DNA of 64,000 bases from an uncultured cyanobacterium. GTDB lineage: Bacteria > Cyanobacteriota > Cyanobacteriia > PCC-9006 > JAAUQQ01. Made by a program: the position numbers and the translations under genes. Positions 6,867-18,039 of the stretch are shown here, in pieces (within the stretch, counting starts at the first letter, position 1; the number at the start of each line of letters is the position of its first letter). The notes below the pieces were generated by a model, which was given only the letters and a program-made list of their open reading frames with translations, was not told the DNA's origin and ran no database searches. The stretch lies in NCBI GenBank assembly GCA_963718615.1, contig OY970368.1, positions 4,832,001-4,896,000 of the forward strand, read 5' to 3'.

Positions 6867-7400
6867 TTAACGGTGTTGCTGGGCGAAGTGGTCTTGGAGT
6901 TCGCGGTGGATGAAGCGGTAGCGACCGCCGATGCGTTGGAGGAGGCGGCGTTCGGTACAGTAATTGAAAAATCTCTCAAGTTGCCAAGGTGCTTTTCTAG
7001 TTGCAAGTAGCACGATCCTCAACGCTAGATGCTTCATCAATGACAAACAGATTAAGTTTGCAAGAACAAATCCAAGCAGACAGATTAAAAACGTTTTGAA
7101 GGAAGCATCAACAATAACTGTTTGACAGTAAAAAAAAGGAAAAAACCAAGCTAGACATGCTGCTGCCTTCAACTTTTCTTCTCGGCCTCTGGTATATCCA
7201 ACATATGGACTAAGTTCTGACGTCCAAACGCTCAACACTGTCGCAAGGGAAAAAACAAACAAGAACAGCACTAGGAAAAACCAGAAAAATGGAAGAAGCG
7301 GTAGCCAAAAAATCACCTTTCCTGTCGTATTTAGACTCTCAAAAATATACAATTGCAGATATTCCTCACAAGAGACATAGAAAAAGCGTAATGCCAATAA
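6867..7400 (-). pseudogene. C-terminal (transmembrane plus conserved tail) part of the interrupted NACHT protein
   Basis: Hydrophobic helices then HLALRIVL....APWQLERFFNYCTERRLLQRIGGRYRFIHRELQDHFA, typical tail of cyanobacterial TM-NACHT proteins. Confidence 0.85.
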
Positions 7401-7759
7401 CAATACTCCGGACAGTTTTTGGGCTCCCGGCGAGGAAAGCTACCCATCATATAGAGTGTATTCACAACCAAGCAAATAAACAGATGGATAGCCTTAAAGA
7501 GATCCTAACCCGGATTTCTCACCAGGGCGGATAGAGAGTATCAGGCTTGCCCGAAATGAGATGAGCAGTCTGTTGACTCGAGCAATAGAGGATGCCTGAG
7601 GCATCTTTCAGGCTGTCTATGCTGTAAAGGTAGTCATTGTGCTCTAGATATGGGGCTTCAGGCAGATTTTGAGCAGGTCAAAGCAAGGGTGTGTAATCTC
7701 ACCCTTGGAGAGTCGTTGAATTAAAGTCGGAGCGAAAGGCTAGAGTTCTACTCATCGGT

Positions 7760-9253
7760 CTATCCTGGCCTAGGGAGTCGTCTGCGCAACTGTTGTGCTG
7801 CCGCTTCAAAGAGGGTTTGTATGGGCGAAGCGAAAGTGAATGCGACGAGAATGCGCCTGACAGAGATGCGAACCTGTGCGCCAAGCTTGAGCAGCTTGCG
7901 TCGAATGGTGCCCAGAGTCGCATCAGCGAGTTCAGTTTTGGCGAGTGCCTTGAGGCGCAGGGCCTGCATCAAGACATAGGCGAAGGATGAAAACCAGAGT
8001 CTGAGCTGATTGCTTTCAAAGTCATGGGTGGAGGTGCGGTCGCTGAAGAGGTCAAGCTGATGCTCCTTGATGCGATTTTCCATCTCTCCTCGCGGACAGT
8101 AATAATCGCGGTGAAGGTGAGCGGGATGGGCCTGCTGTGCTGTCAAAGAGGTGACAACGAAATGGCGACGTGGGCCATTGCCATCGTAGGTGAGCTTGCA
8201 AATGACGCGACGCTCACAGCTCCAGGATTTAAGCGTGGCATAGCTCAAGGACTGATGCCAAACCTGGGGCGGAACCAAGCGGTTGAGTTCAGCCTCTAGT
8301 TCACTTGCACTCTGCTCTAACAGAGGTTCTAAGGTGGCAGCAACCGTTTGGCGCTGGGCCTCATAAACGGCTTTGGCTCGCTGTTCTAACCCCCAAGTCA
8401 ATTGGCGCAAGCGCTCATTGCTGCTGTGGGCAAAAACAAAGTCCACCTGGGCTTCACCTTCACACCACAGCATGATGTCATCTCGGCTGTAAGCACTATC
8501 GCCGCGCACCAGAATCTTCACCTTCGGCCAATGACCTCGAATCTGAGCCACGATGCGTTGGAGTTCTTCTAACGCTCCCGCTGCGGGGTCCACATTGGCC
8601 GGTCGCAGTTTTGCACTCAACAAATGGCGACCACTGAAGATGAGCAACGGGGTGTAGCAGTCATGGCGGTAATACCCATTGAACGCTGAACCTTCCTGGG
8701 TGCCATGGGTGGGGTCATCGGTGACATCCATGTCCAGGATGATTTGTTTCGGTTCACCTTCGAGTTGTTCGATGAATAGCTCCACCAAGAGCGCCTCGAT
8801 GGCAGCCGGGTCCAGGCTCAGTTTCACGTAGCGCGAATCTGACAAGTCGCGGGGGACATGCATCGCTTGCTCCAATCGGTTGAGGGTGCTCTTGCCCGCT
8901 AACGGTGCACAGCGCGGATGCTGGCTTTCTAACTGACCCAGAACTACCCCAAATAATCGCTCATGCCGAAGGTCGTCATGGTCATTCACGTCCTCGTAGC
9001 CTTGCACCAATCCATAAAGCCGTTGCCCGAGCAGCGTTTTCAATTCATGTTGCACCCGGCTGCCATCGCGGTGATCCGTAAAGCACTCGGACAGCCGCTC
9101 ACTGATTCGATATAGCTGGTCGATTTCTCGAATTAGCAGCAGCCCTCCATCACTGCTGAGCTCACCACCGCTAAAGTTCGCTACTATCTTGCGTTGATTC
9201 AGGCGTCCAAACTCGTAGCTTGGCAAGTTACACTCTGTTTGGGTCGGGGCCAT
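7760..9253 (-). CDS. IS1380-family DDE transposase
   Basis: FSGGELSSDGGLLL, LDMDVTDDPTHG.QE, VRGDSAY, YCPRGEMENRIKE, NQLRLWFSSFAY. Confidence 0.95.
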   Translation of the reverse strand: MAPTQTECNLPSYEFGRLNQRKIVANFSGGELSSDGGLLLIREIDQLYRISERLSECFTDHRDGSRVQHELKTLLGQRLYGLVQGYEDVNDHDDLRHERLFGVVLGQLESQHPRCAPLAGKSTLNRLEQAMHVPRDLSDSRYVKLSLDPAAIEALLVELFIEQLEGEPKQIILDMDVTDDPTHGTQEGSAFNGYYRHDCYTPLLIFSGRHLLSAKLRPANVDPAAGALEELQRIVAQIRGHWPKVKILVRGDSAYSRDDIMLWCEGEAQVDFVFAHSSNERLRQLTWGLEQRAKAVYEAQRQTVAATLEPLLEQSASELEAELNRLVPPQVWHQSLSYATLKSWSCERRVICKLTYDGNGPRRHFVVTSLTAQQAHPAHLHRDYYCPRGEMENRIKEHQLDLFSDRTSTHDFESNQLRLWFSSFAYVLMQALRLKALAKTELADATLGTIRRKLLKLGAQVRISVRRILVAFTFASPIQTLFEAAAQQLRRRLPRPG

Positions 9254-9278
9254 CTTTGCAAACCGCTGAATGTCTTGT

Positions 9279-9396
9279 GGTTATTACATTCTCGCTGGTT
9301 GGTGACCCCGATCCCTCGGCACTGGTGAGATATCCGGGTTATTACATTCTCGCTGGTTGGTGACCCCGATCCCTCGGCACTGGTGAGATATCCGGG
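9279..9396. repeat. 58-bp tandem duplication of the IS1380 terminus
   Basis: Unit GGTTATTACATTCTCGCTGG...GGTGAGATATCCG starts at 9279 and again at 9337. Confidence 0.92.
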
Positions 9397-9527
9397 CTCA
9401 ACCAACATCTCCTCGAACGCTTTATTTCTCACTTCGACCTTGACCCGAGTTTGATTAAATCAACACCAGAATGGTTAAACCTATGCCAGTACGGCACTAT
9501 CACCTCTTAAAACTGTCCGGAGTGTTG

Positions 9528-11371
9528 CAATAAGCAGAATCAGTGTATTTTCGTAATCGGCTATTAATTCTAGCCCTGACAAGTCGCCGCATGGCTTTAG
9601 CCCTGTTTGTATATTTTGGATCACAATGAGATACAGTCATATGAGCTAGAGGAAGAACAAGCACAAATGGAGTCCATAGTAGCTTGGCAAAAAAGAACAC
9701 AAAGAATGTACTCAATCTAAGAATTTGATCAATTTCCTCAAGATTCGGCATCCTCAGTGCAATCTTTGAACTGAAGCTAATTTCGTGTAGAATTGGCGTA
9801 TGTTTTCTAATACACCTTGGCACTGGCTTCCTCAATAAGAAACATAGCGGATAAAGCAATAGAGACAGCAACAAGCGAGATCCATCGGCCTTAGACTCTG
9901 TTGAGGCAATAAATGAAAAAGGAATTCCAGTTAGTAGTATACCTGCACTTATTCCGCCCAGAGATATCAGCTCAAACTGCAAAGGTTCAAATTGGCTAAT
10001 CAGCAGCAGTGCAATAGTTCCTGTTGCGACAGCATTAAGGAAAAACAGAGTAGTCCAATAAAACCACTGCTCTCGTTTATCCTGTAGCCAGTACGGCTGA
10101 AGACTTTCCACTGAAAAACTAAACTCGCAATACTTTGTCTGAGATTGAGCTATCCATTGTAGAAAACGTTGAACTTGCTCGATATCAGGCTCCAACTTCA
10201 GACTTTTGAAAGCCCATTGTCTAGCTTTCAGCTCTTTTCTACCTCTATCCGCAAGGCGCATCTCATAACTTAATTGACGCTGAACATATTTCTCTAGTAA
10301 TTCAGTCTTAGCTGGAAGCTTTGTATTTAGATCATAGGCTCTCACCATTAGATTAAGAAATAGAGGTACTCGAAAAAGTTCTAAGCTGTCTTTTTCATCT
10401 TTGTTATTGTATGGGGCTGTAGTTGTTTTAACTAATCGCTTTATTGTCGCTAATAATTGATTGAGTTCGTACGAGTTTCGCTCACCAAACTTCGTCAAAT
10501 AATCATAAATTTGTATATCGCTTAGTGCTTTTAGATGGACTGCACCCCGTAGAGTTGAAAGAACTATTCCCGCCTGTCGAAACTCCTTCATCCGGCAACA
10601 AACTACCAAATGTGAATAGTGCCTCGCAAACTCATTGATTTTGTCTGTACATTTCTTCTGTCGCATCAACTCCAGTTCATCCAAACCATCCAGTAACGGC
10701 AACAACACCTGATGATCTAGCCAGGACTCATAAATCTTGTGCATTCGGCTTCCGCCAAAATTTTCGTACAGCTGTTCTAGCAACCAATCATGAATGCTTT
10801 GATTATTATCCCGCCAAGTAGAAAGCTCAAAAATGATTGGGATGACGGTTTTGGGATTGGCGATCGCCTCCCCCACCAACTGCTCTGCCAGCGTCAATAG
10901 CGTTGTCGTCTTCCCTGCCCCCGGCGTTCCCAAAATCAGCAGCTTGCCCTGGATATCCTCACGTGCATAGATTTGGATAATTGGTTGACGGGGATCGATC
11001 GTTTCCTCCTTTGCTGTTTCTGAAGTAAGGGTTTTCGTTGCCTCAAGAGCCCTAAACTGTGATCGTAACCGTCCCACCAACTCCGGCTCCTCCGACAAAT
11101 CCACCTCCGACAGCAATCCACCGTAAAGCGTATCCCGCAGCCGCTTCTTGATTTCTGGTTGCTGCTCTAGACGCAGGATACGATCGGCCCGATCCCAATC
11201 AATTCCAGGTTGTTCCGATCGCCTTCCAAATAAGGAAAAATATTGCTGGCGAATAATTTGAGCATGGGGAGAATTTTGTAGGGCGATCGCATCCCCACCC
11301 GCCTGCACCTGCTGCACCGAGCTGCCGTCAATTTGGGAATTTTGAATGTCCTGATTTTGGGAATCCGCCAT
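9528..11371 (-). pseudogene. NACHT (STAND/NLR-like) NTPase with C-terminal TM region, interrupted by insertion
   Basis: Walker A GTPGAGKTT, Walker B LPLLDGLDEL, VVCCR..EF, VPLFL; frame runs into the inserted element and stops at 9500. Confidence 0.88.
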
Positions 11372-11374
11372 GGT

Positions 11375-11839
11375 CTAGAACCCCAACAACGCCGCCGCCG
11401 GACCCAACCAGGGCGAAATCATTTCAAACACCTTAACCCCTTTTTCCCAGAGATTCTTACCCGTATCCGTCGCCTTGTCCACCCCCTCCAGCGCATCGCC
11501 CACCCGCTTGAGGTTCTTCGCCACCAAATCCTTATCCGGCTCTTCTTCTTGAACCTCCTGCTTCGCCGACTGCATATAGTTCAGCGCCTTCTGCTCCTGG
11601 GCAGCTGGCAACTGCGCTGCTTTAATCGCGCCCTCCAACTCCACCAGCAACCGCACCACCTCCGCCCCCGTCAACCCTTCCTGAGCTGCCGCCAGATTTC
11701 CCGACTGGCTGGCTGTGGCATTTTGCCCCGCCTGGACCATTTGCACCTGGGCATTGTTGATCGAGGTACCGCTGATCGCTTGGGATTGGGTCGGCTGAGC
11801 AGTCTGAACCGAATCGGGCTGGGATTTTTTCCAAAACAT
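11375..11839 (-). CDS. Small protein: N-terminal Q/N/S/G-rich motif plus helical domain; putative NACHT partner/effector
   Basis: ATG at 11839 with GAGG RBS; stop 3 nt before NACHT ATG; shares N-terminal motif with NACHT. Confidence 0.8.
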   Translation of the reverse strand: MFWKKSQPDSVQTAQPTQSQAISGTSINNAQVQMVQAGQNATASQSGNLAAAQEGLTGAEVVRLLVELEGAIKAAQLPAAQEQKALNYMQSAKQEVQEEEPDKDLVAKNLKRVGDALEGVDKATDTGKNLWEKGVKVFEMISPWLGPAAALLGF

Positions 11840-11938: not shown

Positions 11939-12532
11939 CTACCGGCCCGCCCGCAATAAGACCTCCGCCGTTAATTTTAGATTCGGGAATGTTGGAGAGG
12001 CGATCGCCGCATCTCCCTGAAACGTCACAAAGACATAGCCCTCATTCGTCAAACTGCCCACCCTCACCCAAGCGAGGGATGGATCAATCTGCCACATTTC
12101 CGGGATTCCCCTGGATGCATATTCCTGAGGTTTACGCCCATAGTCCCGCTGGTAATTGTCTGAGTCTTCATTGCCGGGGGACACCACCTCAATCACCAGC
12201 CAAGGATTCGGCTCACCCAACCTCAAACAAACCTCGGCACGACCTTCGATCGCCAGGGCTGATTCCTCAGAATGAACAATCAAATCTGGATCCCGAACGG
12301 TCGCATAGACACTATCCACCTGAAGATGCTGCTTCATGCCCAATCGATAGAAAGGAAGCCCCATCTGTTGCAGAAAATGTGCATACAAAAAGCCTGCAAT
12401 CCAGTTATTGAGGGTACTTTCCGCTCCCATCGCAACTAGTACCCCATCCTCAAGCTCATAGCGGATATCCGTACCATCGTCATAGTTCAGATACTCCTCC
12501 AGAGACATTCGTTTTTGGGTGGCGACGGTCAT
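11939..12532 (-). CDS. Uma2-family endonuclease
   Basis: MSLEEYLNYDDGTD.RYELEDG, PDL, LVIEVVSPG, YASRGIPEMWQIDP. Confidence 0.92.
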   Translation of the reverse strand: MTVATQKRMSLEEYLNYDDGTDIRYELEDGVLVAMGAESTLNNWIAGFLYAHFLQQMGLPFYRLGMKQHLQVDSVYATVRDPDLIVHSEESALAIEGRAEVCLRLGEPNPWLVIEVVSPGNEDSDNYQRDYGRKPQEYASRGIPEMWQIDPSLAWVRVGSLTNEGYVFVTFQGDAAIASPTFPNLKLTAEVLLRAGR

Positions 12533-12646: not shown

Positions 12647-14845
12647 ATGGCTGTTTTTCTCCTTGAAGTCGGTACCGAAGAACTACCGGCATCCTTCGTC
12701 ACGGATGCCCTCGCCCAGTGGCGACAGCTCGTGCCCGCCAGTTTGGCCGAGGAATTTCTAGAGCCCAAATCCGTCGCCGTCTATGGAACGCCACGCCGTT
12801 TGGCCGTGGTGATTGAGGGGTTGCCCACACAGCAGCGCGATCGCGAAGAAGACATCAAAGGCCCCCCCGCCAGCGCCGCCTTCAAGGATGGCAAACCCAC
12901 CAAAGCCGCCGAAGGCTTCGCCCGCAAGCAAGGGGTTGAGCTCGCAGCGCTGGAAGTGCGCCCCACAGATAGAGGGGATTTTGTATTTGTCCAGAAAAAA
13001 ACTGCTGGACGACCCACAGCGGCAATTTTGACAGAGCTGATTCCCCGGTGGATCGGTGGGCTGGAAGGTAAACGCTTGATGCGCTGGGGCGATGGGGAAC
13101 TGCGGTTCTCGCGTCCGATTCGCTGGCTCGTGGCCCTGTTGGATGAGCAGTTGCTGGATTTGACGCTGGAGAATGGCTCAGCTCATTGCAATCAGTCGGT
13201 GAAGAGCGATCGCCAATCCCGAGGCCACCGGGTTCTCCACGACCAACCGGTCCTGCTCGACCATGCCAAAGACTACGTCGCTGCCCTCAAATCCGCCTTT
13301 GTCATGGTGGACCCCGCCGAGCGCGAAGCGGTGATTCGCCAGCAAACCCTAGCCGCCGCCAAAAAACAGGGCGGTGTGGCGGAAATGCCAGATGAGCTGA
13401 TGGCAGAGGTGGTCAATTTAGTGGAATGGCCCACGGCAGTCGTGGGTACCTTTGAAGACGAATTTCTCAACCTGCCCCCGGAGGTGATCACCACAGTGAT
13501 GATCAGCCACCAACGTTACTTTCCCCTACGCCACAAGGGTGCCCAGGACGACCGGGCCGCGACGGCGGCGACGAAGACCTTACTCCCCCATTTTGTGACG
13601 ATTTCCAATGGCGATCCGGCCAAGTCCGAGATTATTGCCGAGGGCAATGGTCGGGTCGTGCGCGCCAGGTTGGCCGATGGCGAGTACTTTTACAAAGCCG
13701 ATGCAGCCCAGTCTTTAGAAGCGTTTTTACCCAAATTGGAAACCGTGACGTTCCAGGCTTCTTTGGGATCGATGACGGCCAAGGCAGAACGGATTGAGGC
13801 GATCGCCGAACTGTTAGCAGACCAACTGGGTTTGATTGGCGACAACCGCCAGCAGATCCTCCGCGCCGCCAAACTCTGCAAAGCCGACCTCGTTAGCCAA
13901 ATGGTTTTTGAGTTTCCCGAGCTTCAGGGCATCATGGGCCAAAAGTACGCCCTTGTTAGCGGCGAATCCCCCGAAGTTGCCGCAGCAATGTATGAGCATT
14001 ATTTACCGCGCGGGGCCGGAGATGAGCTGCCCCAGAGTTTGATGGGGCAGGTGGTGGCGATCGCCGATCGCCTCGATACCCTCGTCAGTATTTTTGGTCT
14101 GGGCATGATTCCCTCCAGTTCCTCCGATCCCTTTGCCCTACGGCGGGCAGCCAATGCCATTGTTAATATTGTTTGGCATTCAGGACTGGCGCTCAACCTA
14201 GACCAGTTGCTTAGCCAAGCGGTGGATAAATTTGCTGGACGGTTCCCAGATTTGGTCGCGGATCCAGCGGGATTGCTCGGGCAACTGCGGGAATTTTTTC
14301 TGGGACGGGTGCGATCGCTCCTCCAGGAAGAACAGCAAATGGACTATGACCTGGTTAACGCCGTTCTGGGTGAAGGCGATGCGGAGTACACTGCACGGGC
14401 GTTGCAGGATCTGCTGGATGTGGGCGATCGCGCCCGGTTTCTGCAAGCCATTCGCCAGGATGGACGACTGGAGCAAATCTATGAATCGATTAACCGCTCT
14501 AGCCGTCTTGCCGCCAAGGGTGAGTTGGACTTTGCCGCGCTGGACGCCCAAGAAGTTGTAGATCCCAAGCTATTCCAACAGCCTACGGAGCAAGCTTTCT
14601 ACGAGGGTCTCGTGGCACTCTTGCCTAAAACCCAAGCCGCACAATCTTCACGGGACTATAACCAAGTCGTGGCCGCCCTCGCGGAAATTGCTCCAGCGGT
14701 GGCAGAGTTTTTTGATGGGGAGCAAAGCGTATTGGTGATGGATCCGGATCCGGCGGTTCAGGCTAATCGCTTAAATTTGCTCGGCATTTTGCGCAATCAT
14801 GGACGGGTTTTGGCGGATTTTGGGGCGATCGTGAAGGGCCAATAA
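12647..14845 (+). CDS. glyS: Glycine--tRNA ligase beta subunit
   Basis: [22 protein letters not shown]...[38 protein letters not shown]. Confidence 0.97.
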
Positions 14846-14885
14846 CACTTCAAAATGATGGAATGATGGGAATAAAAGTGGGGAT

Positions 14886-14916
14886 AAAAAAGGGGATGCA
14901 GATCAACCACATCCCC
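14886..14916 (-). terminator. Putative intrinsic terminator of the cpc operon (convergent with glyS)
   Basis: GGGGATG...CATCCCC stem with T-run on the minus strand. Confidence 0.55.
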
Positions 14917-14956
14917 AGCAATCGCTTTGCTCATTAAAGCAAGTCAGACTCTGGAT

Positions 14957-15826
14957 TTAGAGCGGAACAATACTCGCAATTTGTCCCCCTTGGCGACGCA
15001 CTCTTTGCAGATAGGGCGTCAGCTCTTCATAGGGAATCACAACGGCTTTGTTCACCCGACGAACCTTAGGATAGCGAGGTCCACTTGCCCCTGCAACTTC
15101 TACTCGATAGAAACGGCTAGAGGAAAACGCCTTGGAACCTCCAAAAGTACTGACTGGCGTATTGCCCTTCGCCGCAGGCAGGAAGGCAAAGCCACCGGCA
15201 CCACCAGAAGGCGGCAAGACCACAGAAGCCGAATTACGCGCTAAATCGTTGACCAGTCGAGGTGCATTCCCCGTTAACTGGGCGCGATCGCTATTCGCAG
15301 GACCCCGATAAAGCTGGAGCAAGCGAGGAAGTCCCACAGCTCTCTGACCAACACCCGTTGTGACCAAATCCCGGTAATAGGGAACAATATTTTCGCCAAA
15401 GCTGGTTTGATACTCAGAGGAGTCAATATAGGAGTCAATATCCGCATCAAATCCCTGGGATTGATACAGATTCAGGTGTTCGCTGATTTCTGACTGAGCA
15501 TAGGGAGCCCGTCCGAGCAAATGCTTGAAATTTAGCTCGATGGTCCGGCTCTGGAAACTGTTGTAGAAGAACTGTTGCTTGTACAGATCCGACTTCGCCA
15601 ATTGGCGCACAAATTCTTGAACGGTGATTTTGCGATCGCGCAATAAAGACTCCGCAATCACCAATCGCTCAGAGGTCAAAAGATGAGGATTCCCCAAAAC
15701 CTGCTGATACGCCGCGAGAATAACCGATTCAACTTCTGCTTGAGTTGCATTGGGACGTAGCTCCACCGGAGCAGCATTGCTAAATGCCGACGTTCCGAGG
15801 CGAGCTGCTGCTGTTGTAATAGCCAC
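14957..15826 (-). CDS. cpcC: Phycocyanin-associated rod linker polypeptide
   Basis: [41 protein letters not shown], CpcD-like C-terminus. Confidence 0.93.
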
Positions 15827-16001
15827 CTAAATTTCTCCTTCAGTACAAGGTAATGGACCAAGAGGGGGTATGTATCACAAGTTATTTTCATCACACAAGT
15901 TGTGCGTGACAAGTTGTACATGACAAGTGGTACATGACAACAGGATAACCTCCCTCCTCCCTAGCCCCTCTCCCTGAGGGAGAAGGGAGCCAGAGCCAAG
16001 G

Positions 16002-16817
16002 CTAAACGGGGGTAACGCTAACGACCTTCCGACCCGCCCGGCTTAACTGTTGGAGCTTGGGCGTCAATTGGTCATAGGACACCAGCAGGTCAACCGCACT
16101 CCGCCGCACAACGGCTGAATTGGGAGCAGCGGCTTGGAGAACCCGTAGCCGATACACACTACCCCGAGAGCCCCCTAAGGCACCGGAGAGCGCACTGGAA
16201 GAAGCAGAAGAAATGGGAGTAGACGAATTGCGAGCCACTTCCCAGGTTAAGCGAGGCTTGGTTTGACACTGGGCGCGATCGCTACTGGCATAACCACTAT
16301 AAAGATGCATCAACCGGCTAAAGCCAATCGCCCGCTGTCCGGGATGATCCACTTGAAAATCGCGATGATAGGGAACAATATTGTCCCCAAAACTGCTGTC
16401 ATACTCCGGAGAGTTGAGATAGGAATCAATTTCCGCTTCGTATCCCTGGGAAAGGAATAGATCCAAATGATAGGAAATCTCAGCTTGATCGTAGGGGGCT
16501 CGTCCCAACAGATGCTTATAATTCAGCTCAATAAAGCGCATGTGGAAGTTGGGATACAAAAACTTCTTGCGATAGAGCTCTGAGGTGGCGATCGCCCGCA
16601 CAAAATCCCGTACCGAAAGCACGCCGCGCATCAGCAGCGACTCAGGACCCACTAAACGCTCGCTATTCATCAGATGCTCATTGCCCAGCACCTGCCGATA
16701 GGCCGCCGAAATCACCGACTGCATCTCATCGGGTGTCCAGTTAGCACGCAATTCAACGGGTTCCGTTTCTCCAAAGGGTTGAATCCCTAATCGTCCTGCC
16801 TCTTGTAATCCAGCCAT
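16002..16817 (-). CDS. cpcC: Phycocyanin rod linker polypeptide (second CpcC paralogue)
   Basis: Start [11 protein letters not shown]; [31 protein letters not shown]. Confidence 0.9.
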
Positions 16818-16961
16818 GTTGGTTTCCCCCACGCAAGGAATTAGTAAACCGATTTTTTCAAAAATTTTTAACTTTAACGCTTGATCGAAAACTGCCCGGA
16901 ATGATCGCAACAACACTATCACCTGGATAGCACTGCCGATCTTTCCGGGCAAACATCAGAC

Positions 16962-17447
16962 TTAGAGAGAGTTGATGATGTAGTCGATGTAGGAGTTGGC
17001 TTCCAGTGCAGGGTCACCGCTTAAACCGTGGTTAGCCTTGATATACTTGAGGGCTTCAGCATACCAGCTGGGAACCAATTCAAAGCTGCTGTGCATTTCA
17101 GCCAGACCAGCCAACAGGAATTCATCAGCAGGGCCAGTGCCGCCAGCAATCAGACAGTACTGAATGATGCGGACGTAGTAGCCGATGTCGCGCAGGCACT
17201 TAGCCTTACCGCGAGCGCTGGAGGCATAGTTGTTGCCCTGCATCGAGGTGGTGTAGGGGAAAGCTTGATAAACTGCATTAGCAGCGCCTTCAGCTAGCTG
17301 GTCTGCCTTGGCACCTAGGGCCTTAGCAGCTTCTAGGTCAGCATTGGCCAAGCGTAGGCGACCAAAAGCAACCTGAAGTTCAACGTTACCGAGGTAACGG
17401 CCTTGGGAATCAGCAGCTGCAACCGCTTCTGTTAATTGGGTTTTCAT
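16962..17447 (-). CDS. cpcA: C-phycocyanin alpha subunit
   Basis: [37 protein letters not shown]. Confidence 0.95.
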
Positions 17448-17520
17448 TGGAATGATATCTCCCTCGTATTTTAGAAAGTTTTAAGTGGATCGAAGCCTTG
17501 AAACGTGAGCTTACAGATAA

Positions 17521-18039
17521 TTAGCTGACAGCTGCAGCTGCGCGGTCAAAGTAGCCACCCAATTCAGCCATGAGCGCGCTACAGTCGCCGGGGGTTACAC
17601 CGTTGCGATCGTTAGCAAGCGCGATCGCAGCTTCTTTCATTTTGAGCACGCTATTGGCCATGGAAGAGGTCGGAACACCCAATGCCAAATAGGTTTCACG
17701 CAGACCATTCAAGCAGCGGTCATCCAGCACGCTGGAATCGCCTAGGAACACTGCATAGGTCACGTAGCGCAGGATGATGTCCATGTCGCGCATACAGGCC
17801 GAGATCCGGCGGTTGGTATAAGCATTTCCACCAGGAGCAATGAGTTGAGGCTGCTCTTCAAATAACGCGCGAGCTGCATTGGTGACGATCGTCGATGCAG
17901 AGCCGGTAATGCGGTTTACAACATCGGTGCGCTTTGCACCATCACGAACCATGGCAGCCAGAGCGTCAATCTGAGCACCGCTCACCAATTGACCGCTATT
18001 ATCAGCCTGAGAAACAACCTTGGTAAAGGCATCTAACAT
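17521..18039 (-). CDS. cpcB: C-phycocyanin beta subunit
   Basis: [46 protein letters not shown]. Confidence 0.97.

What the first reader, a model, noticed from the sequence alone, without database searches (positions are those of the whole stretch)
11276..11839. Candidate amyloid-signalling pair: small helical protein and adjacent NACHT share an N-terminal VQxVQAG motif
Residues 18-45 of the small protein (QSQAISGTSINNAQVQMVQAGQNATASQ) align without gaps to residues 5-32 of the NACHT (QNQDIQNSQIDGSSVQQVQAGGDAIALQ): 13/28 identical, with further N/D and S/T swaps. The genes are 3 nt apart and show no other similarity. A short polar motif shared by an NLR and its neighbour is the hallmark of fungal HET-s/NWD2 and bacterial BASS/RHIM-like amyloid signalling. 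In those systems the effector usually carries the motif at its C-terminus; here it is N-terminal, ahead of a helical domain ending in a hydrophobic tail (ISPWLGPAAALLGF), and the NLR has TM helices rather than TPR/WD40 repeats. This may be an undescribed architecture of a prion-like cell-death/defence system. The NACHT copy here is inactivated.
Basis: partly seen in the sequence, partly recalled or inferred. Interest (0 to 1): 0.88.

Follow-up and report, generated by a model that had tools for sequence, protein, structure and literature searches.

The report
NACHT sensor and motif-sharing helical effector
A small helical protein and the neighbouring NACHT-type sensor of a filamentous cyanobacterium carry the same short glutamine-rich tag, a conserved arrangement that resembles the prion-like "amyloid signalling" of fungal and bacterial cell-death systems but with the tag at the opposite end of the effector; in this genome the sensor gene has been split by an insertion sequence.

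Summary
The 154-aa protein (11375-11839, minus strand) and the NACHT protein that starts 3 nt downstream share a gapless, roughly 30-residue Q/N/S/G-rich motif (13/30 identical, BLASTP E 1e-4). A motif profile built only from other genomes hits exactly these two places in the 6.1-Mb genome.

The pairing is conserved: 18 of 21 related genome loci have the motif on both genes. Across the wider family of the helical domain (396 clusters) the motif changes type, and the downstream sensor (NACHT, nSTAND1+WD40, iSTAND, FGE-sulfatase, GUN4) carries the matching type (31 pairs, 0 of 20000 permutations).

Paralogous NACHT-TM proteins instead sit behind small proteins that look like Bell domains and carry the motif C-terminally. 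AlphaFold2 gives a disordered motif followed by a confident four-helix bundle. The module also occurs fused behind TIR and CHAT domains.

Best reading: a BASS-like, motif-templated sensor-to-effector death or defence module with an effector domain and an inverted topology that I did not find described. Amyloid formation and toxicity are untested. The NACHT gene here is split by a 2.1-kb insertion holding an IS present in eight identical copies.

The parts
11375..11839 (-). Gene of the 154-aa small protein (P0001): N-terminal motif, four-helix bundle and moderately hydrophobic C-terminal helix. The stop codon is 11375-11377.
   Evidence: ORF and translation. There are 25 homologs of 145-156 aa at 40-87% identity that share the start MF.KK. 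AlphaFold2 model.
11696..11788 (-). Shared Q/N/S/G-rich motif on the small protein (residues 18-48).
   Evidence: BLASTP against the NACHT. Gapless alignment A2. Leave-out profile hit at E 7.9e-9. pLDDT below 50 in the monomer model.
11378..11677 (-). Helical domain (residues 55-154): helices 58-74, 79-96, 103-117 and 125-152. The last helix ends in the conserved P-W-L-G tail.
   Evidence: AlphaFold2 pLDDT about 90, pTM 0.60. W131, P143 and W144 are invariant. A profile of the family finds 396 clusters.
11372..11374 (-). 3-nt spacer between the stop of the small gene and the ATG of the NACHT gene; the two are probably one transcript.
   Evidence: ORF coordinates and sequence. Co-transcription is inferred and was not measured.
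9537..11371 (-). 5' part of the NACHT-TM sensor gene (about 611 authentic codons). The open frame runs on into the inserted DNA to a stop at 9500-9502.
   Evidence: Translation P0002. Aligns to residues 1-606 of the 776-aa homolog P0034.
11267..11359 (-). Shared motif at the N-terminus of the NACHT protein (residues 5-35).
   Evidence: Leave-out profile hit at E 1.1e-7. The same motif profile matches 92 of 118 listed NACHT homologs at E<=0.01.
10502..10939 (-). NACHT NTPase domain (residues 145-290), with Walker A GTPGAGKT at residue 148.
   Evidence: Pfam PF05729, E 2.3e-6, 28.0 bits against a cut-off of 26.7. Walker A. G151, K154, T155 and D228-E232 are invariant in 44 homologs.
7392..9536 (.). 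Inserted DNA that splits the NACHT gene. It is bounded by 28-nt imperfect inverted repeats (7392-7419 and 9509-9536). The boundaries are good to a few nucleotides, and the two gene halves are 2 nt out of frame across it.
   Evidence: Inverted repeat I1, sequences, homolog alignment on both sides.
7506..9399 (-). Insertion sequence nested in the insert. It has a DDE transposase ORF at 7760-9253, terminal inverted repeats at 7506-7531 and 9316-9341 / 9374-9396, and a 58-nt tandem duplication at 9279-9394.
   Evidence: Pfam DDE_Tnp_1_4, E 6.9e-138. Seven other 100% identical copies in the genome cover about window 7506-9341. Repeats.
6867..7391 (-). 3' part of the NACHT-TM gene: TM-like segments and the conserved C-terminal segment that ends the family. 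The stop codon is 6867-6869.
   Evidence: Stop-to-stop ORF 6867-7439. Aligns to P0034 residues 636-775 at E 8e-26. 3-4 hydrophobic segments.

Best explanation
This is a two-gene STAND/NLR-type conflict (cell-death or anti-phage) module.

The downstream gene encodes the sensor and switch. It has an N-terminal motif of about 30 residues, a NACHT NTPase and a multi-pass membrane region.

The upstream gene encodes the effector. It starts with the same motif, intrinsically disordered in the monomer, followed by a four-helix bundle whose last helix ends in a conserved, moderately hydrophobic P-W-L-G tail.

Proposed mechanism, inferred by analogy with HET-S/NWD2 and Bell/BASS systems:
1. A trigger makes the NACHT oligomerise.
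2. The clustered N-terminal motifs adopt a beta-rich, prion-like (amyloid or beta-solenoid) fold.
3. That fold templates the same fold in the motif of the small protein.
4. The helical bundles are thereby brought together and rearranged.
5. The C-terminal helix is released and acts on the membrane, killing or arresting the cell.

The topology is the mirror image of Bell/HeLo effectors, which have the membrane helix at the N-terminus and the motif at the C-terminus.

Shown here: the shared motif, its conservation and co-variation, the gene order, the fold prediction, the domain partners and the disruption of the sensor. Inferred: binding through the motif, the amyloid nature of the assembly, the membrane activity and the defence role. 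In this genome the sensor is split by an insertion, so the module is most likely inactive and the effector gene is orphaned.
For: 1. The motif is shared and specific. BLASTP E 1e-4. A leave-out profile hits only these two sites in 6.1 Mb.

2. The pair is conserved. In 18 of 21 genome-contig loci the gene just downstream of the small gene begins with, or in L014/L017/L018 carries after two TM helices, the motif. In the 401 genomes searched (400 sampled plus the window's own), the three other genomes with strong motif hits each have two adjacent hits and the same gene order.

3. The effector domain is constant and the tag is variable. A profile of the small protein finds 396 clusters. Only 22 of 129 full-size representatives match this motif type at E<=0.01, yet nearly all have some Q/N/S/G-rich stretch before the bundle. 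In 13 of 20 diverse loci the downstream gene starts with the matching variant. Over 31 pairs the partner score is 64.8 against 42.9 for non-partners, and 0 of 20000 permutations reach that.

4. The partners are sensor or switch proteins of conflict systems: NACHT, nSTAND1 (+WD40), iSTAND, FGE-sulfatase and GUN4.

5. Paralogous NACHT-TM proteins are preceded by small proteins that fit the published description of Bell domains and whose C-terminal motif matches the NACHT N-terminus (L043, L050, L056, L060, L062). In the same receptor family, this N-terminal position therefore looks like a BASS slot.

6. The composition is BASS-like: Q 25%, S 13%, G 12%, N 8%, K 0.2%, P 0.1%. The description in Dyrka 2020 section 9 is similar.

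7. AlphaFold2 gives a motif with pLDDT below 50 and a bundle with pLDDT about 90.

8. The module is fused behind TIR (4 proteins) and CHAT (2 by Pfam) domains. Two of two full-length CHAT-fused metagenome loci have a downstream STAND NTPase with the matching motif.

9. The helical module matches the PADLOC candidate-defence model PDC-M14B at E 1.3e-8.
Against: There is no experimental or structural evidence for amyloid, binding or toxicity.

Within this motif subfamily, pair-specific co-variation is weak: 11.5 against 10.7 identities of 31, permutation p 0.027. The strong signal comes from a few motif-type switches among related sequences, not from many independent events.

Seven of 20 diverse loci showed no motif-bearing gene downstream (L073, L078, L080, L081, L082, L083, L093).

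The C-terminal tail does not reach a transmembrane hydropathy threshold.

The bundle shows no detectable kinship to the Bell-like proteins, either in native order or circularly permuted (hhalign probability 0.1-0.2%). That comparison rested on an alignment of only six Bell-like sequences.

The fold searches give only generic four-helix bundles.

In TIR and CHAT fusions an enzymatic effector is already present, so the bundle could be a localising or regulatory part rather than the killing part.

The window's own copy lacks an intact sensor.
Confidence: 0.55

Rival explanations
1. Same two-gene sensor-effector module, but the shared motif is a finite homotypic adaptor. It would form a short beta-sheet or beta-solenoid hetero-oligomer with fixed stoichiometry, like a miniature Death-fold or EAD coupling, rather than an open-ended, self-templating amyloid or prion.
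For: Hydrophobic residues recur every five positions (columns 5, 10, 15). The QGDNN-type variant is a short tandem repeat, and its partner gives a sub-threshold match to a beta-roll family (LbR_Ice_bind, E 3.4e-5, 24.3 bits against a cut-off of 30). Both fit a small solenoid. Coupling of a sensor and an effector by a shared small domain in adjacent genes is the EAD principle of Kaur 2020 (passages).
Against: The composition, length and position are those described for BASS motifs that did form fibrils and prions (Dyrka 2020 abstract and section 9). Paralogous receptors sit behind small proteins that fit the Bell/BASS pattern. There is no Pfam EAD match at E<=1.
Confidence: 0.25
2. The small protein is not the effector but a regulator (inhibitor, chaperone or decoy) that caps the N-terminal motif of the NACHT. 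The killing part would be the receptor's own multi-pass, glycine-zipper-rich membrane region.
For: The NACHT-TM family has 5-9 hydrophobic segments, many of the G-x-x-x-G type, where NLRs usually carry repeats. The tail of the small protein is not a clear TM helix.
Against: The same helical module pairs with sensors that have no such membrane region: nSTAND1+WD40, iSTAND, FGE-sulfatase and a NACHT without it. It is also fused to TIR and CHAT death or defence domains. The same NACHT-TM family sits behind separate Bell-like proteins, so it appears to behave as a receptor with an external effector.
Confidence: 0.1
3. The similarity is a chance match of two low-complexity Q-rich N-termini and the small ORF has no functional link to the NACHT.
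For: The motif is 25% glutamine and only 13 residues are identical.
Against: A leave-out profile finds only these two sites in the genome. 18 of 21 related loci keep both motifs. The motif types co-vary. The small protein is a conserved, confidently folded family.
Confidence: 0.01

Closest known systems
Bell-domain / BASS - NLR gene pairs of filamentous bacteria (Dyrka et al. 2020, bioRxiv 10.1101/2020.01.06.895854; abstract and sections 6, 7, 9 read)
   Same: Adjacent collinear genes a few nucleotides apart. A short Q/N/G-rich, K/P-poor motif is shared by a small helical protein and the N-terminus of a NACHT/NB-ARC protein. The hosts are cyanobacteria with a multicellular habit. The same NACHT-TM receptor family also sits behind small proteins that fit this pattern.
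   Different: The motif lies N-terminal, not C-terminal, to the helical domain. The hydrophobic helix is C-terminal, not N-terminal. There is no detectable sequence relation to the Bell-like proteins. That screen looked only at the C-termini of Bell proteins (section 7), so it could not have found this family. Whether the motif falls in BASS1-10 could not be tested.
HET-S / NWD2 of Podospora (fungal amyloid signalling; as summarised in the introduction of Dyrka 2020)
   Same: The logic is the same. The NLR N-terminal motif templates the same motif on a helical, membrane-targeting executioner encoded next door. The motif is disordered before activation.
   Different: HET-S has the HeLo domain N-terminal and a two-repeat prion domain C-terminal. 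Here there is one motif copy, placed N-terminally, and a bundle of different sequence. No experimental evidence exists here.
Bab/Agp (BASS11) abortive-infection system of E. coli (Ibarlosa et al. 2024, bioRxiv 10.1101/2024.11.07.622273; abstract and section 4 read)
   Same: A small helical effector and a large sensor share an amyloid motif in adjacent genes. That motif is also associated with TIR, CHAT, NACHT and NB-ARC. It is the precedent that such pairs defend against phage.
   Different: [quoted passage not shown] The host is an enterobacterium.
EAD (effector-associated domain) coupling in NTPase conflict systems (Kaur et al. 2020, PMC7159879; passages read)
   Same: One copy of a small module sits on the STAND NTPase and one on the effector, in adjacent genes. 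Copies in adjacent genes are more alike. TIR and caspase/CHAT effectors are involved. The systems are enriched in multicellular bacteria.
   Different: Most EADs are folded, mostly alpha-helical domains with Pfam models. The shared element here is a disordered stretch of about 30 residues that is likely to form beta structure, with no Pfam match. The helical bundle is not shared with the sensor.
EACC1 - caspase two-gene membrane system (Kaur 2020 section 33; Evans et al. 2025 bioRxiv 10.1101/2025.11.14.688446; passages read)
   Same: A small upstream protein acts as a latent membrane-damaging effector of a larger downstream sensor protein.
   Different: [quoted passage not shown] It is activated by proteolysis and is mostly actinobacterial. 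Here the effector is a four-helix bundle, the sensor has no protease, and activation is proposed to go through a shared motif.
PADLOC candidate system PDC-M14, component B (PADLOC-DB 2.0.0 model PDLC04449)
   Same: Residues 29-143 of the small protein match positions 151-264 of the 267-position model at E 1.3e-8. The CHAT- and TIR-fused relatives match too.
   Different: This is only a candidate defence family without a description. No paper holding 'PDC-M14' was found. The first 150 positions of the model are not matched. P0002 and the intact ortholog P0028 matched no PDC-M14 model.

Membership tests
BASS/Bell-type amyloid signalling pair (Dyrka 2020) | Effector and NLR encoded by adjacent, collinear genes with a very short gap | tested here: met
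   The gap in the window is 3 nt. Gaps in L037-L039 are 22, 404 and 7 nt. In the diverse loci with a matching partner most gaps are 4-15 nt and three are 99-161 nt (L079, L089, L094). The paper reports 91% collinear and 57% within 10 bp.
BASS/Bell-type amyloid signalling pair (Dyrka 2020) | A motif of about 25 residues shared by the effector and the N-terminus of the NACHT/NB-ARC protein | tested here: met
   Present in 18 of 21 related loci.
BASS/Bell-type amyloid signalling pair (Dyrka 2020) | Motif at the C-terminus of the effector | tested here: not met
   The motif occupies residues 18-48 of 154, ahead of the helical domain. In fusions it lies between the TIR or CHAT domain and the bundle.
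BASS/Bell-type amyloid signalling pair (Dyrka 2020) | Effector is a Bell domain (N-terminal hydrophobic helix, acidic residue at position 2-3, five-helix bundle) | tested here: inconclusive
   hhalign of A1 against six Bell-like neighbours of paralogous receptors gives probability 0.15%, and 0.13% with the last helix moved to the front. The model has four helices and the hydrophobic helix is last. The architectural features (hydrophobic helix first, five helices) are not met. The kinship test rested on only six Bell-like sequences, and no Bell HMM was available.
BASS/Bell-type amyloid signalling pair (Dyrka 2020) | Composition enriched in Q, N, G, V, I and depleted in K, P, L | tested here: met
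   Q 25.2%, N 8.1%, G 12.0%, K 0.2%, P 0.1%, L 5.2%. V and I are 5.2% each, so they are not enriched.
BASS/Bell-type amyloid signalling pair (Dyrka 2020) | Match to one of the BASS1-11 motif profiles | not testable with these tools
   The consensus logos are figures and the motif tables are supplements, which were closed. No consensus appears in the text of PMC8086366.
BASS/Bell-type amyloid signalling pair (Dyrka 2020) | Motif forms fibrils or prions, and the NLR-side motif seeds the effector-side motif | not testable with these tools
   This needs ThT, EM, ssNMR or reporter assays.
NACHT (STAND) NTPase | Pfam PF05729 above the gathering score, with Walker A and Walker B | tested here: met
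   28.0 bits against 26.7. GTPGAGKT at residue 148. D228-G-L-D-E232 is invariant in 44 homologs.
NLR architecture in the strict sense (NACHT/NB-ARC + TPR/WD/LRR repeats) | C-terminal superstructure-forming repeats | tested here: not met
   There is no repeat family in Pfam. Instead there are 5-9 hydrophobic segments and a conserved C-terminal segment. Partners of other members of the effector family do have WD40 (L098).
EAD-coupled system (Kaur 2020) | Shared element is one of the EAD domains (Pfam models exist) | tested here: not met
   No Pfam match at E<=1 other than a spurious FUSC hit below its cut-off. The shared element is disordered in the model.
EACC1 | Single conserved TM helix with alpha+beta extensions, upstream of a caspase-fused protein | tested here: not met
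   The model is a four-helix bundle and no window reaches the TM threshold. The downstream protein has no peptidase.
Insertion sequence with DDE transposase (Pfam DDE_Tnp_1_4) | Transposase ORF, terminal inverted repeats and multiple identical copies in the genome | tested here: met
   E 6.9e-138. Inverted repeats at 7506-7531 and 9316-9341. Eight copies at 100% identity. A target-site duplication was not identified.

The most novel reading that the evidence does not exclude
A previously undescribed, widespread family (at least 396 clusters at 50% identity) of cyanobacterial cell-death effectors works as a mirror image of HeLo/Bell.

A prion-like motif at the N-terminal side is templated by the N-terminal motif of a STAND sensor (NACHT, nSTAND1 or iSTAND) or of another sensor. 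This fires a four-helix bundle whose C-terminal helix attacks the membrane.

Because the same motif-plus-bundle cassette is also bolted behind TIR and CHAT domains, one amyloid nucleation event would fire two effectors at once.

This would show that amyloid signalling does not depend on the C-terminal placement assumed by all published screens, which would therefore have missed a large share of bacterial amyloid-signalling systems.
Probability: 0.4. Interest if true: 0.8.

Novelty: new variant of a known kind. Interest (0 to 1): 0.68.

Why it matters
Published searches for bacterial and fungal amyloid signalling motifs look at the N-termini of NLRs and the C-termini of effectors (Dyrka 2020 section 7; the 2025 method paper PMC12261475; a 2026 review, PMC13506858).

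If this family signals the same way, three things follow. The rule 'motif at the effector's C-terminus' is not a mechanistic requirement. A new effector domain joins HeLo, Bell and Bab. The catalogue of amyloid-controlled immune modules in multicellular bacteria is incomplete.

The family offers a clean test bed. The proteins are small, the motif has several natural types with matched partners, there are natural fusions to TIR and CHAT, and there are sensors of four or more architectures.

It also bears on how a helical executioner is kept silent. In HET-S the N-terminal helix is released by folding of the C-terminal prion domain. Here the geometry is reversed.

For this particular genome the practical meaning is small. 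The sensor is knocked out by a recently active IS, which is itself a snapshot of how such costly death modules decay.

Tried and rejected
Kinship of the helical domain with Bell-like proteins. hhalign of A1 against A3 gave probability 0.15%. Run on the helical part alone and on a circularly permuted version, it gave 0.13% each. A3 has only six sequences, so this is a weak test.

Fold searches. Foldseek against the PDB found nothing at E<=0.001. VIA-align over 48,161 chains gave a top Z of 11.7 (YicC, rmsd 2.9, 104 aligned), followed by many unrelated and designed four-helix bundles. That is under the tool's mark of about 13 for helical bundles. No HeLo, MLKL or Bab chain is among the 50 rows shown, which excludes nothing.

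Complex prediction. Complex prediction with residues 1-60 of both proteins, two copies each and with alignments, returned 'no answer' with a score of 0.06. It is reported here only and is not used as evidence.

Family libraries. Pfam and NCBIfam give nothing for the small protein. The protein atlas returned only unnamed cyanobacterial clusters with a best score of 0.91, plus a DUF4404 lead at 0.87 that I did not follow.

Expression. The look-up of sequencing runs listed no RNA holder and only small-share metagenome DNA rows.

Second-copy hit L002. It had E 0.37 in the own genome and is an unrelated ORF.

Weak hits to A1 in small genomes. Six matches at E about 1e-6 in genomes of 1.7-2.1 Mb of other families, inside 460-570-aa ORFs, were not examined. 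I treat them as probably spurious helical matches.

EACC1 and EAD were considered and rejected as identities.

Mapping to BASS1-11 was not possible (supplements closed). Those supplements, Table S2 of Dyrka 2020 in particular, could show that the NACHT-side motif is already listed under a BASS family.

Literature. Five searches were run. None turned up a description of an effector with the motif N-terminal to its domain, and no paper holds 'PDC-M14'. This is not proof that none exists, because subscription journals are not searched.

Target-site duplication. I looked for one at the outer insert boundaries and found none that was convincing.


Full report
WHAT IS THERE

On the minus strand a 154-aa ORF (11375-11839, P0001) is followed after 3 nt by a 623-aa ORF (9500-11371, P0002). 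P0002 is a NACHT NTPase: Pfam PF05729 scores 28.0 bits against a cut-off of 26.7 for residues 145-290, and Walker A lies at residue 148. P0001 matches no Pfam or NCBIfam family. BLASTP of the two proteins returns a single, gapless HSP: residues 17-46 against 4-33, 13/30 identical, E 1e-4 with composition correction.

IS IT MORE THAN CHANCE?

I built a 31-column profile of the motif from 14 gene pairs of other genomes, leaving the window out (A5), and searched the six-frame translation of the window's complete 6.1-Mb genome. It finds two places: the small protein (E 7.9e-9) and the NACHT N-terminus (E 1.1e-7). The next hit has E 0.24.

The conservation is position-specific and the same on both sides: Q at columns 1, 3, 16, 19 and 28, I/L/V at 5, 10 and 15, A-G at 20-21, and D/N at 23. 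The composition is Q 25%, S 13%, G 12% and N 8%, with K 0.2% and P 0.1%.

THE PAIR IS CONSERVED

P0001 has 25 homologs of 145-156 aa at 40-87% identity. They share the motif, a helical part and a P-W-L-G tail.

A scan of one genome per species found 21 loci, all in cyanobacteria whose record titles name Leptolyngbya, Nodosilinea, Drouetiella, Crinalium, Alkalinema, Leptothermofonsia and others. In 18 of them (L003-L020) the next gene on the same strand carries the motif. Of the other three, L022 is cut by the contig end, and L021 and L023 are partial or degenerate matches where no such ORF was seen.

There are variations among the 18:
- In L014, L017 and L018 the NACHT protein has two TM helices before the motif.
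- In L019 the partner is motif + TM + GUN4, not a NACHT.
- L010 has in-frame stops in both genes, L013 has a frameshifted NACHT, and L012 has a truncated one.

In the 401 genomes of the phylum searched (400 sampled plus the window's own), the motif profile hit five besides the window's. The three strong ones each had two adjacent hits and the same gene order.

Conversely, 92 of the 118 best NACHT homologs match the motif profile at E<=0.01, and 77 match at E<=1e-5.

Within this subfamily, partners are only slightly more alike than non-partners: 11.5 against 10.7 identities of 31, over 17 pairs, permutation p 0.027.

THE BROADER FAMILY SHOWS THE LOGIC

A profile of the small protein, searched against 1.84 billion representatives, finds 396 clusters at E<=1e-3 and 232 at E<=1e-10. 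Of the best 150, 21 are fragments under 125 aa, 84 are stand-alone proteins of 125-200 aa, and 45 are longer with the module at their C-terminus.

Of ten long proteins scanned, two carry CHAT and eight carry pentapeptide repeats. Four further ones carry TIR_2.

The helical part is conserved but the stretch before it is not. Only 22 of 129 full-size representatives match this window's motif type at E<=0.01. Nearly all have some Q/N/S/G-rich segment there.

In 20 diverse loci from the phylum sample, 13 have a downstream gene whose N-terminus carries the matching variant. The variants include an I-G-Q-A-G-R-D-L type, a V-Q-G-D-N-N repeat type and others. Seven loci do not: L073, L078, L080, L081, L082, L083 and L093.

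Two of two full-length CHAT-fused loci from metagenomes also have a downstream STAND NTPase with the matching motif.

Smith-Waterman scores of the effector-side segment against the partner N-terminus for 31 pairs average 64.8 for true partners against 42.9 for all other combinations. None of 20000 permutations reaches that value. The matrix is blocked by motif type, so the signal rests on a handful of type switches among related sequences, not on 31 independent events.

The partners are NACHT, nSTAND1 (with WD40 in L098), iSTAND, FGE-sulfatase and GUN4 proteins. By the passages of Kaur 2020/2021 and Dore 2024 that I read, STAND NTPases (NACHT, nSTAND1, iSTAND) are the switches of bacterial conflict systems, and their C-terminal lectin-type domains are the proposed sensors. 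That the FGE-sulfatase match corresponds to such a lectin-type sensor domain is my own recollection, not something I read there.

THE RECEPTOR FAMILY SITS BEHIND BELL-LIKE BASS-TYPE PARTNERS ELSEWHERE

The NACHT-TM family is present in 42 of 401 sampled genomes. Only the members with this motif have the small protein studied here.

Paralogs with other N-termini are preceded by proteins of about 125-140 aa. These have a hydrophobic N-terminal helix with an acidic residue at position 2-3, and a C-terminal motif that matches the NACHT N-terminus (L043, L050, L056, L060, L062). That is the description of Bell/BASS pairs in Dyrka 2020, sections 6 and 7. No Bell HMM was available to confirm membership, and Pfam has none.

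STRUCTURE

AlphaFold2 with the 26-sequence alignment gives residues 1-53 at pLDDT below 50. It gives a four-helix bundle (58-74, 79-96, 103-117, 125-152) at pLDDT about 90, with pTM 0.60. Fold searches return only generic helical bundles. hhalign sees no relation to the Bell-like proteins, native or permuted. The last 18 residues have mean hydropathy 1.3, and no 19-residue window reaches 1.6, so the tail is not a classical TM anchor.

THE SENSOR IS BROKEN HERE

P0002 aligns to residues 1-606 of the 776-aa homolog P0034. The rest of the gene is the ORF at 6867-7439, which aligns to residues 636-775.

Between the two parts lie about 2145 bp (7392-9536), bounded by 28-nt imperfect inverted repeats. 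Inside is an IS with a DDE_Tnp_1_4 transposase. This IS has seven more 100%-identical copies in the genome.

The 5' part is otherwise intact, so the disruption is recent. The two halves are 2 nt out of frame across the insert. I found no clear target-site duplication.

HOW IT MOST LIKELY WORKS

This is inferred. The NACHT oligomerises on a trigger. Its clustered N-terminal motifs fold into a beta-rich assembly that recruits and templates the motif of the small protein. The bundles are thereby concentrated and rearranged, and the C-terminal helix acts on the membrane. Where TIR or CHAT precedes the motif, these domains would be clustered and activated too.

The rival readings are a finite, non-amyloid adaptor (0.25), the small protein acting as a regulator of a self-killing NACHT-TM (0.10), and chance (0.01).

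COMPARISON WITH WHAT IS KNOWN

The logic is that of HET-S/NWD2, Bell/BASS and Bab/Agp. The differences are the placement of the motif (N-terminal to the effector domain), the placement of the hydrophobic helix (C-terminal) and the effector domain itself.

Dyrka 2020 screened only the C-termini of Bell proteins. A 2025 methods paper and an August 2026 review still state that effector motifs are C-terminal. EACC1 and the EADs are different entities.

PADLOC-DB holds a candidate model, PDC-M14B, that matches the helical module at E 1.3e-8. No paper containing that name was found.

I could not check the BASS motif tables because supplements were closed. The NACHT-side motif may therefore already be listed under a BASS number.

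VERDICT

It is a new variant of a known kind of system. The amyloid mechanism and the killing function are plausible but untested. Interest is 0.68.

Noticed in passing
window 7392-9536: The IS (core about 7506-9341, eight 100%-identical copies in the genome) sits inside a further 251 bp (7392-7505 and 9400-9536). These are bounded by 28-nt imperfect inverted repeats and are not part of the other IS copies. This may be a small MITE-like element that the IS hit, or that carried it. A 58-nt perfect tandem duplication lies at 9279-9394, and one other IS copy seems to share it (its match runs to query position 2005).
   Followed up: partly
window 6867-7391 and 9537-11371; P0028-P0032: The NACHT-TM family has an unusual architecture. 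After the NTPase and a helical part come 5-9 hydrophobic segments, many of them G-x-x-x-G-rich repeats (two near-identical repeat units in L003). A strongly conserved cytosolic-looking C-terminal segment then ends the protein. The family is present in 42 of 401 sampled cyanobacterial genomes. What it senses is unknown.
   Followed up: partly
L043, L050, L056, L058, L060, L062: [quoted passage not shown] In L053 the gene upstream of the receptor looks like a CHAT protein by its sequence; this was not tested with Pfam.
   Followed up: partly
L074-L078, L091-L095: One subfamily has the helical module at the end of proteins of about 700 aa with pentapeptide repeats and many TM segments. It is preceded by a V-Q-G-D-N-N-type tandem repeat. 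The downstream partners start with the same repeat and carry FGE-sulfatase or iSTAND domains. The repeat gives a sub-threshold match to a beta-roll ice-binding family.
   Followed up: partly
L014, L017, L018: In three Nodosilinea/Leptolyngbya loci the NACHT protein has two TM helices before the shared motif. There the motif is not at the extreme N-terminus and its side of the membrane is unclear.
   Followed up: no
L010, L012, L013, L023: There are signs of decay in relatives. L010 has in-frame stops in both genes, L012 has a truncated NACHT remnant, L013 has a frameshifted NACHT, and L023 has only a 48-residue remnant of the small gene at a locus syntenic with L013. Together with the IS hit in the window, this suggests that these modules are often lost.
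   Followed up: no
P0160: This 268-aa representative joins the first roughly 100 residues of the small protein directly to a middle and C-terminal stretch of a NACHT-TM protein. It is apparently a deletion fusion of the two adjacent genes.
   Followed up: no
window 11939-12532 (-): A Uma2-family putative restriction endonuclease gene (Pfam E 6.5e-24) lies directly upstream of the small gene. One NACHT homolog (P0138) is annotated with Uma2 plus NACHT domains.
   Followed up: no
P0001 residues 1-5; alignment A1: The stand-alone small proteins begin with a nearly invariant M-F-x-K-K (F2, K4, K5), ahead of the motif. It is absent from the fused forms and I have no explanation for it.
   Followed up: no
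window 12647-18039: The neighbouring genes are housekeeping genes: the glycyl-tRNA synthetase beta subunit (12647-14845, +), a phycobilisome linker with a CpcD domain (14957-15826), and ORFs that look like a second linker and phycobiliprotein subunits by their sequence (16002-18039, not tested). The pair is therefore not in an obvious defence island.
   Followed up: partly
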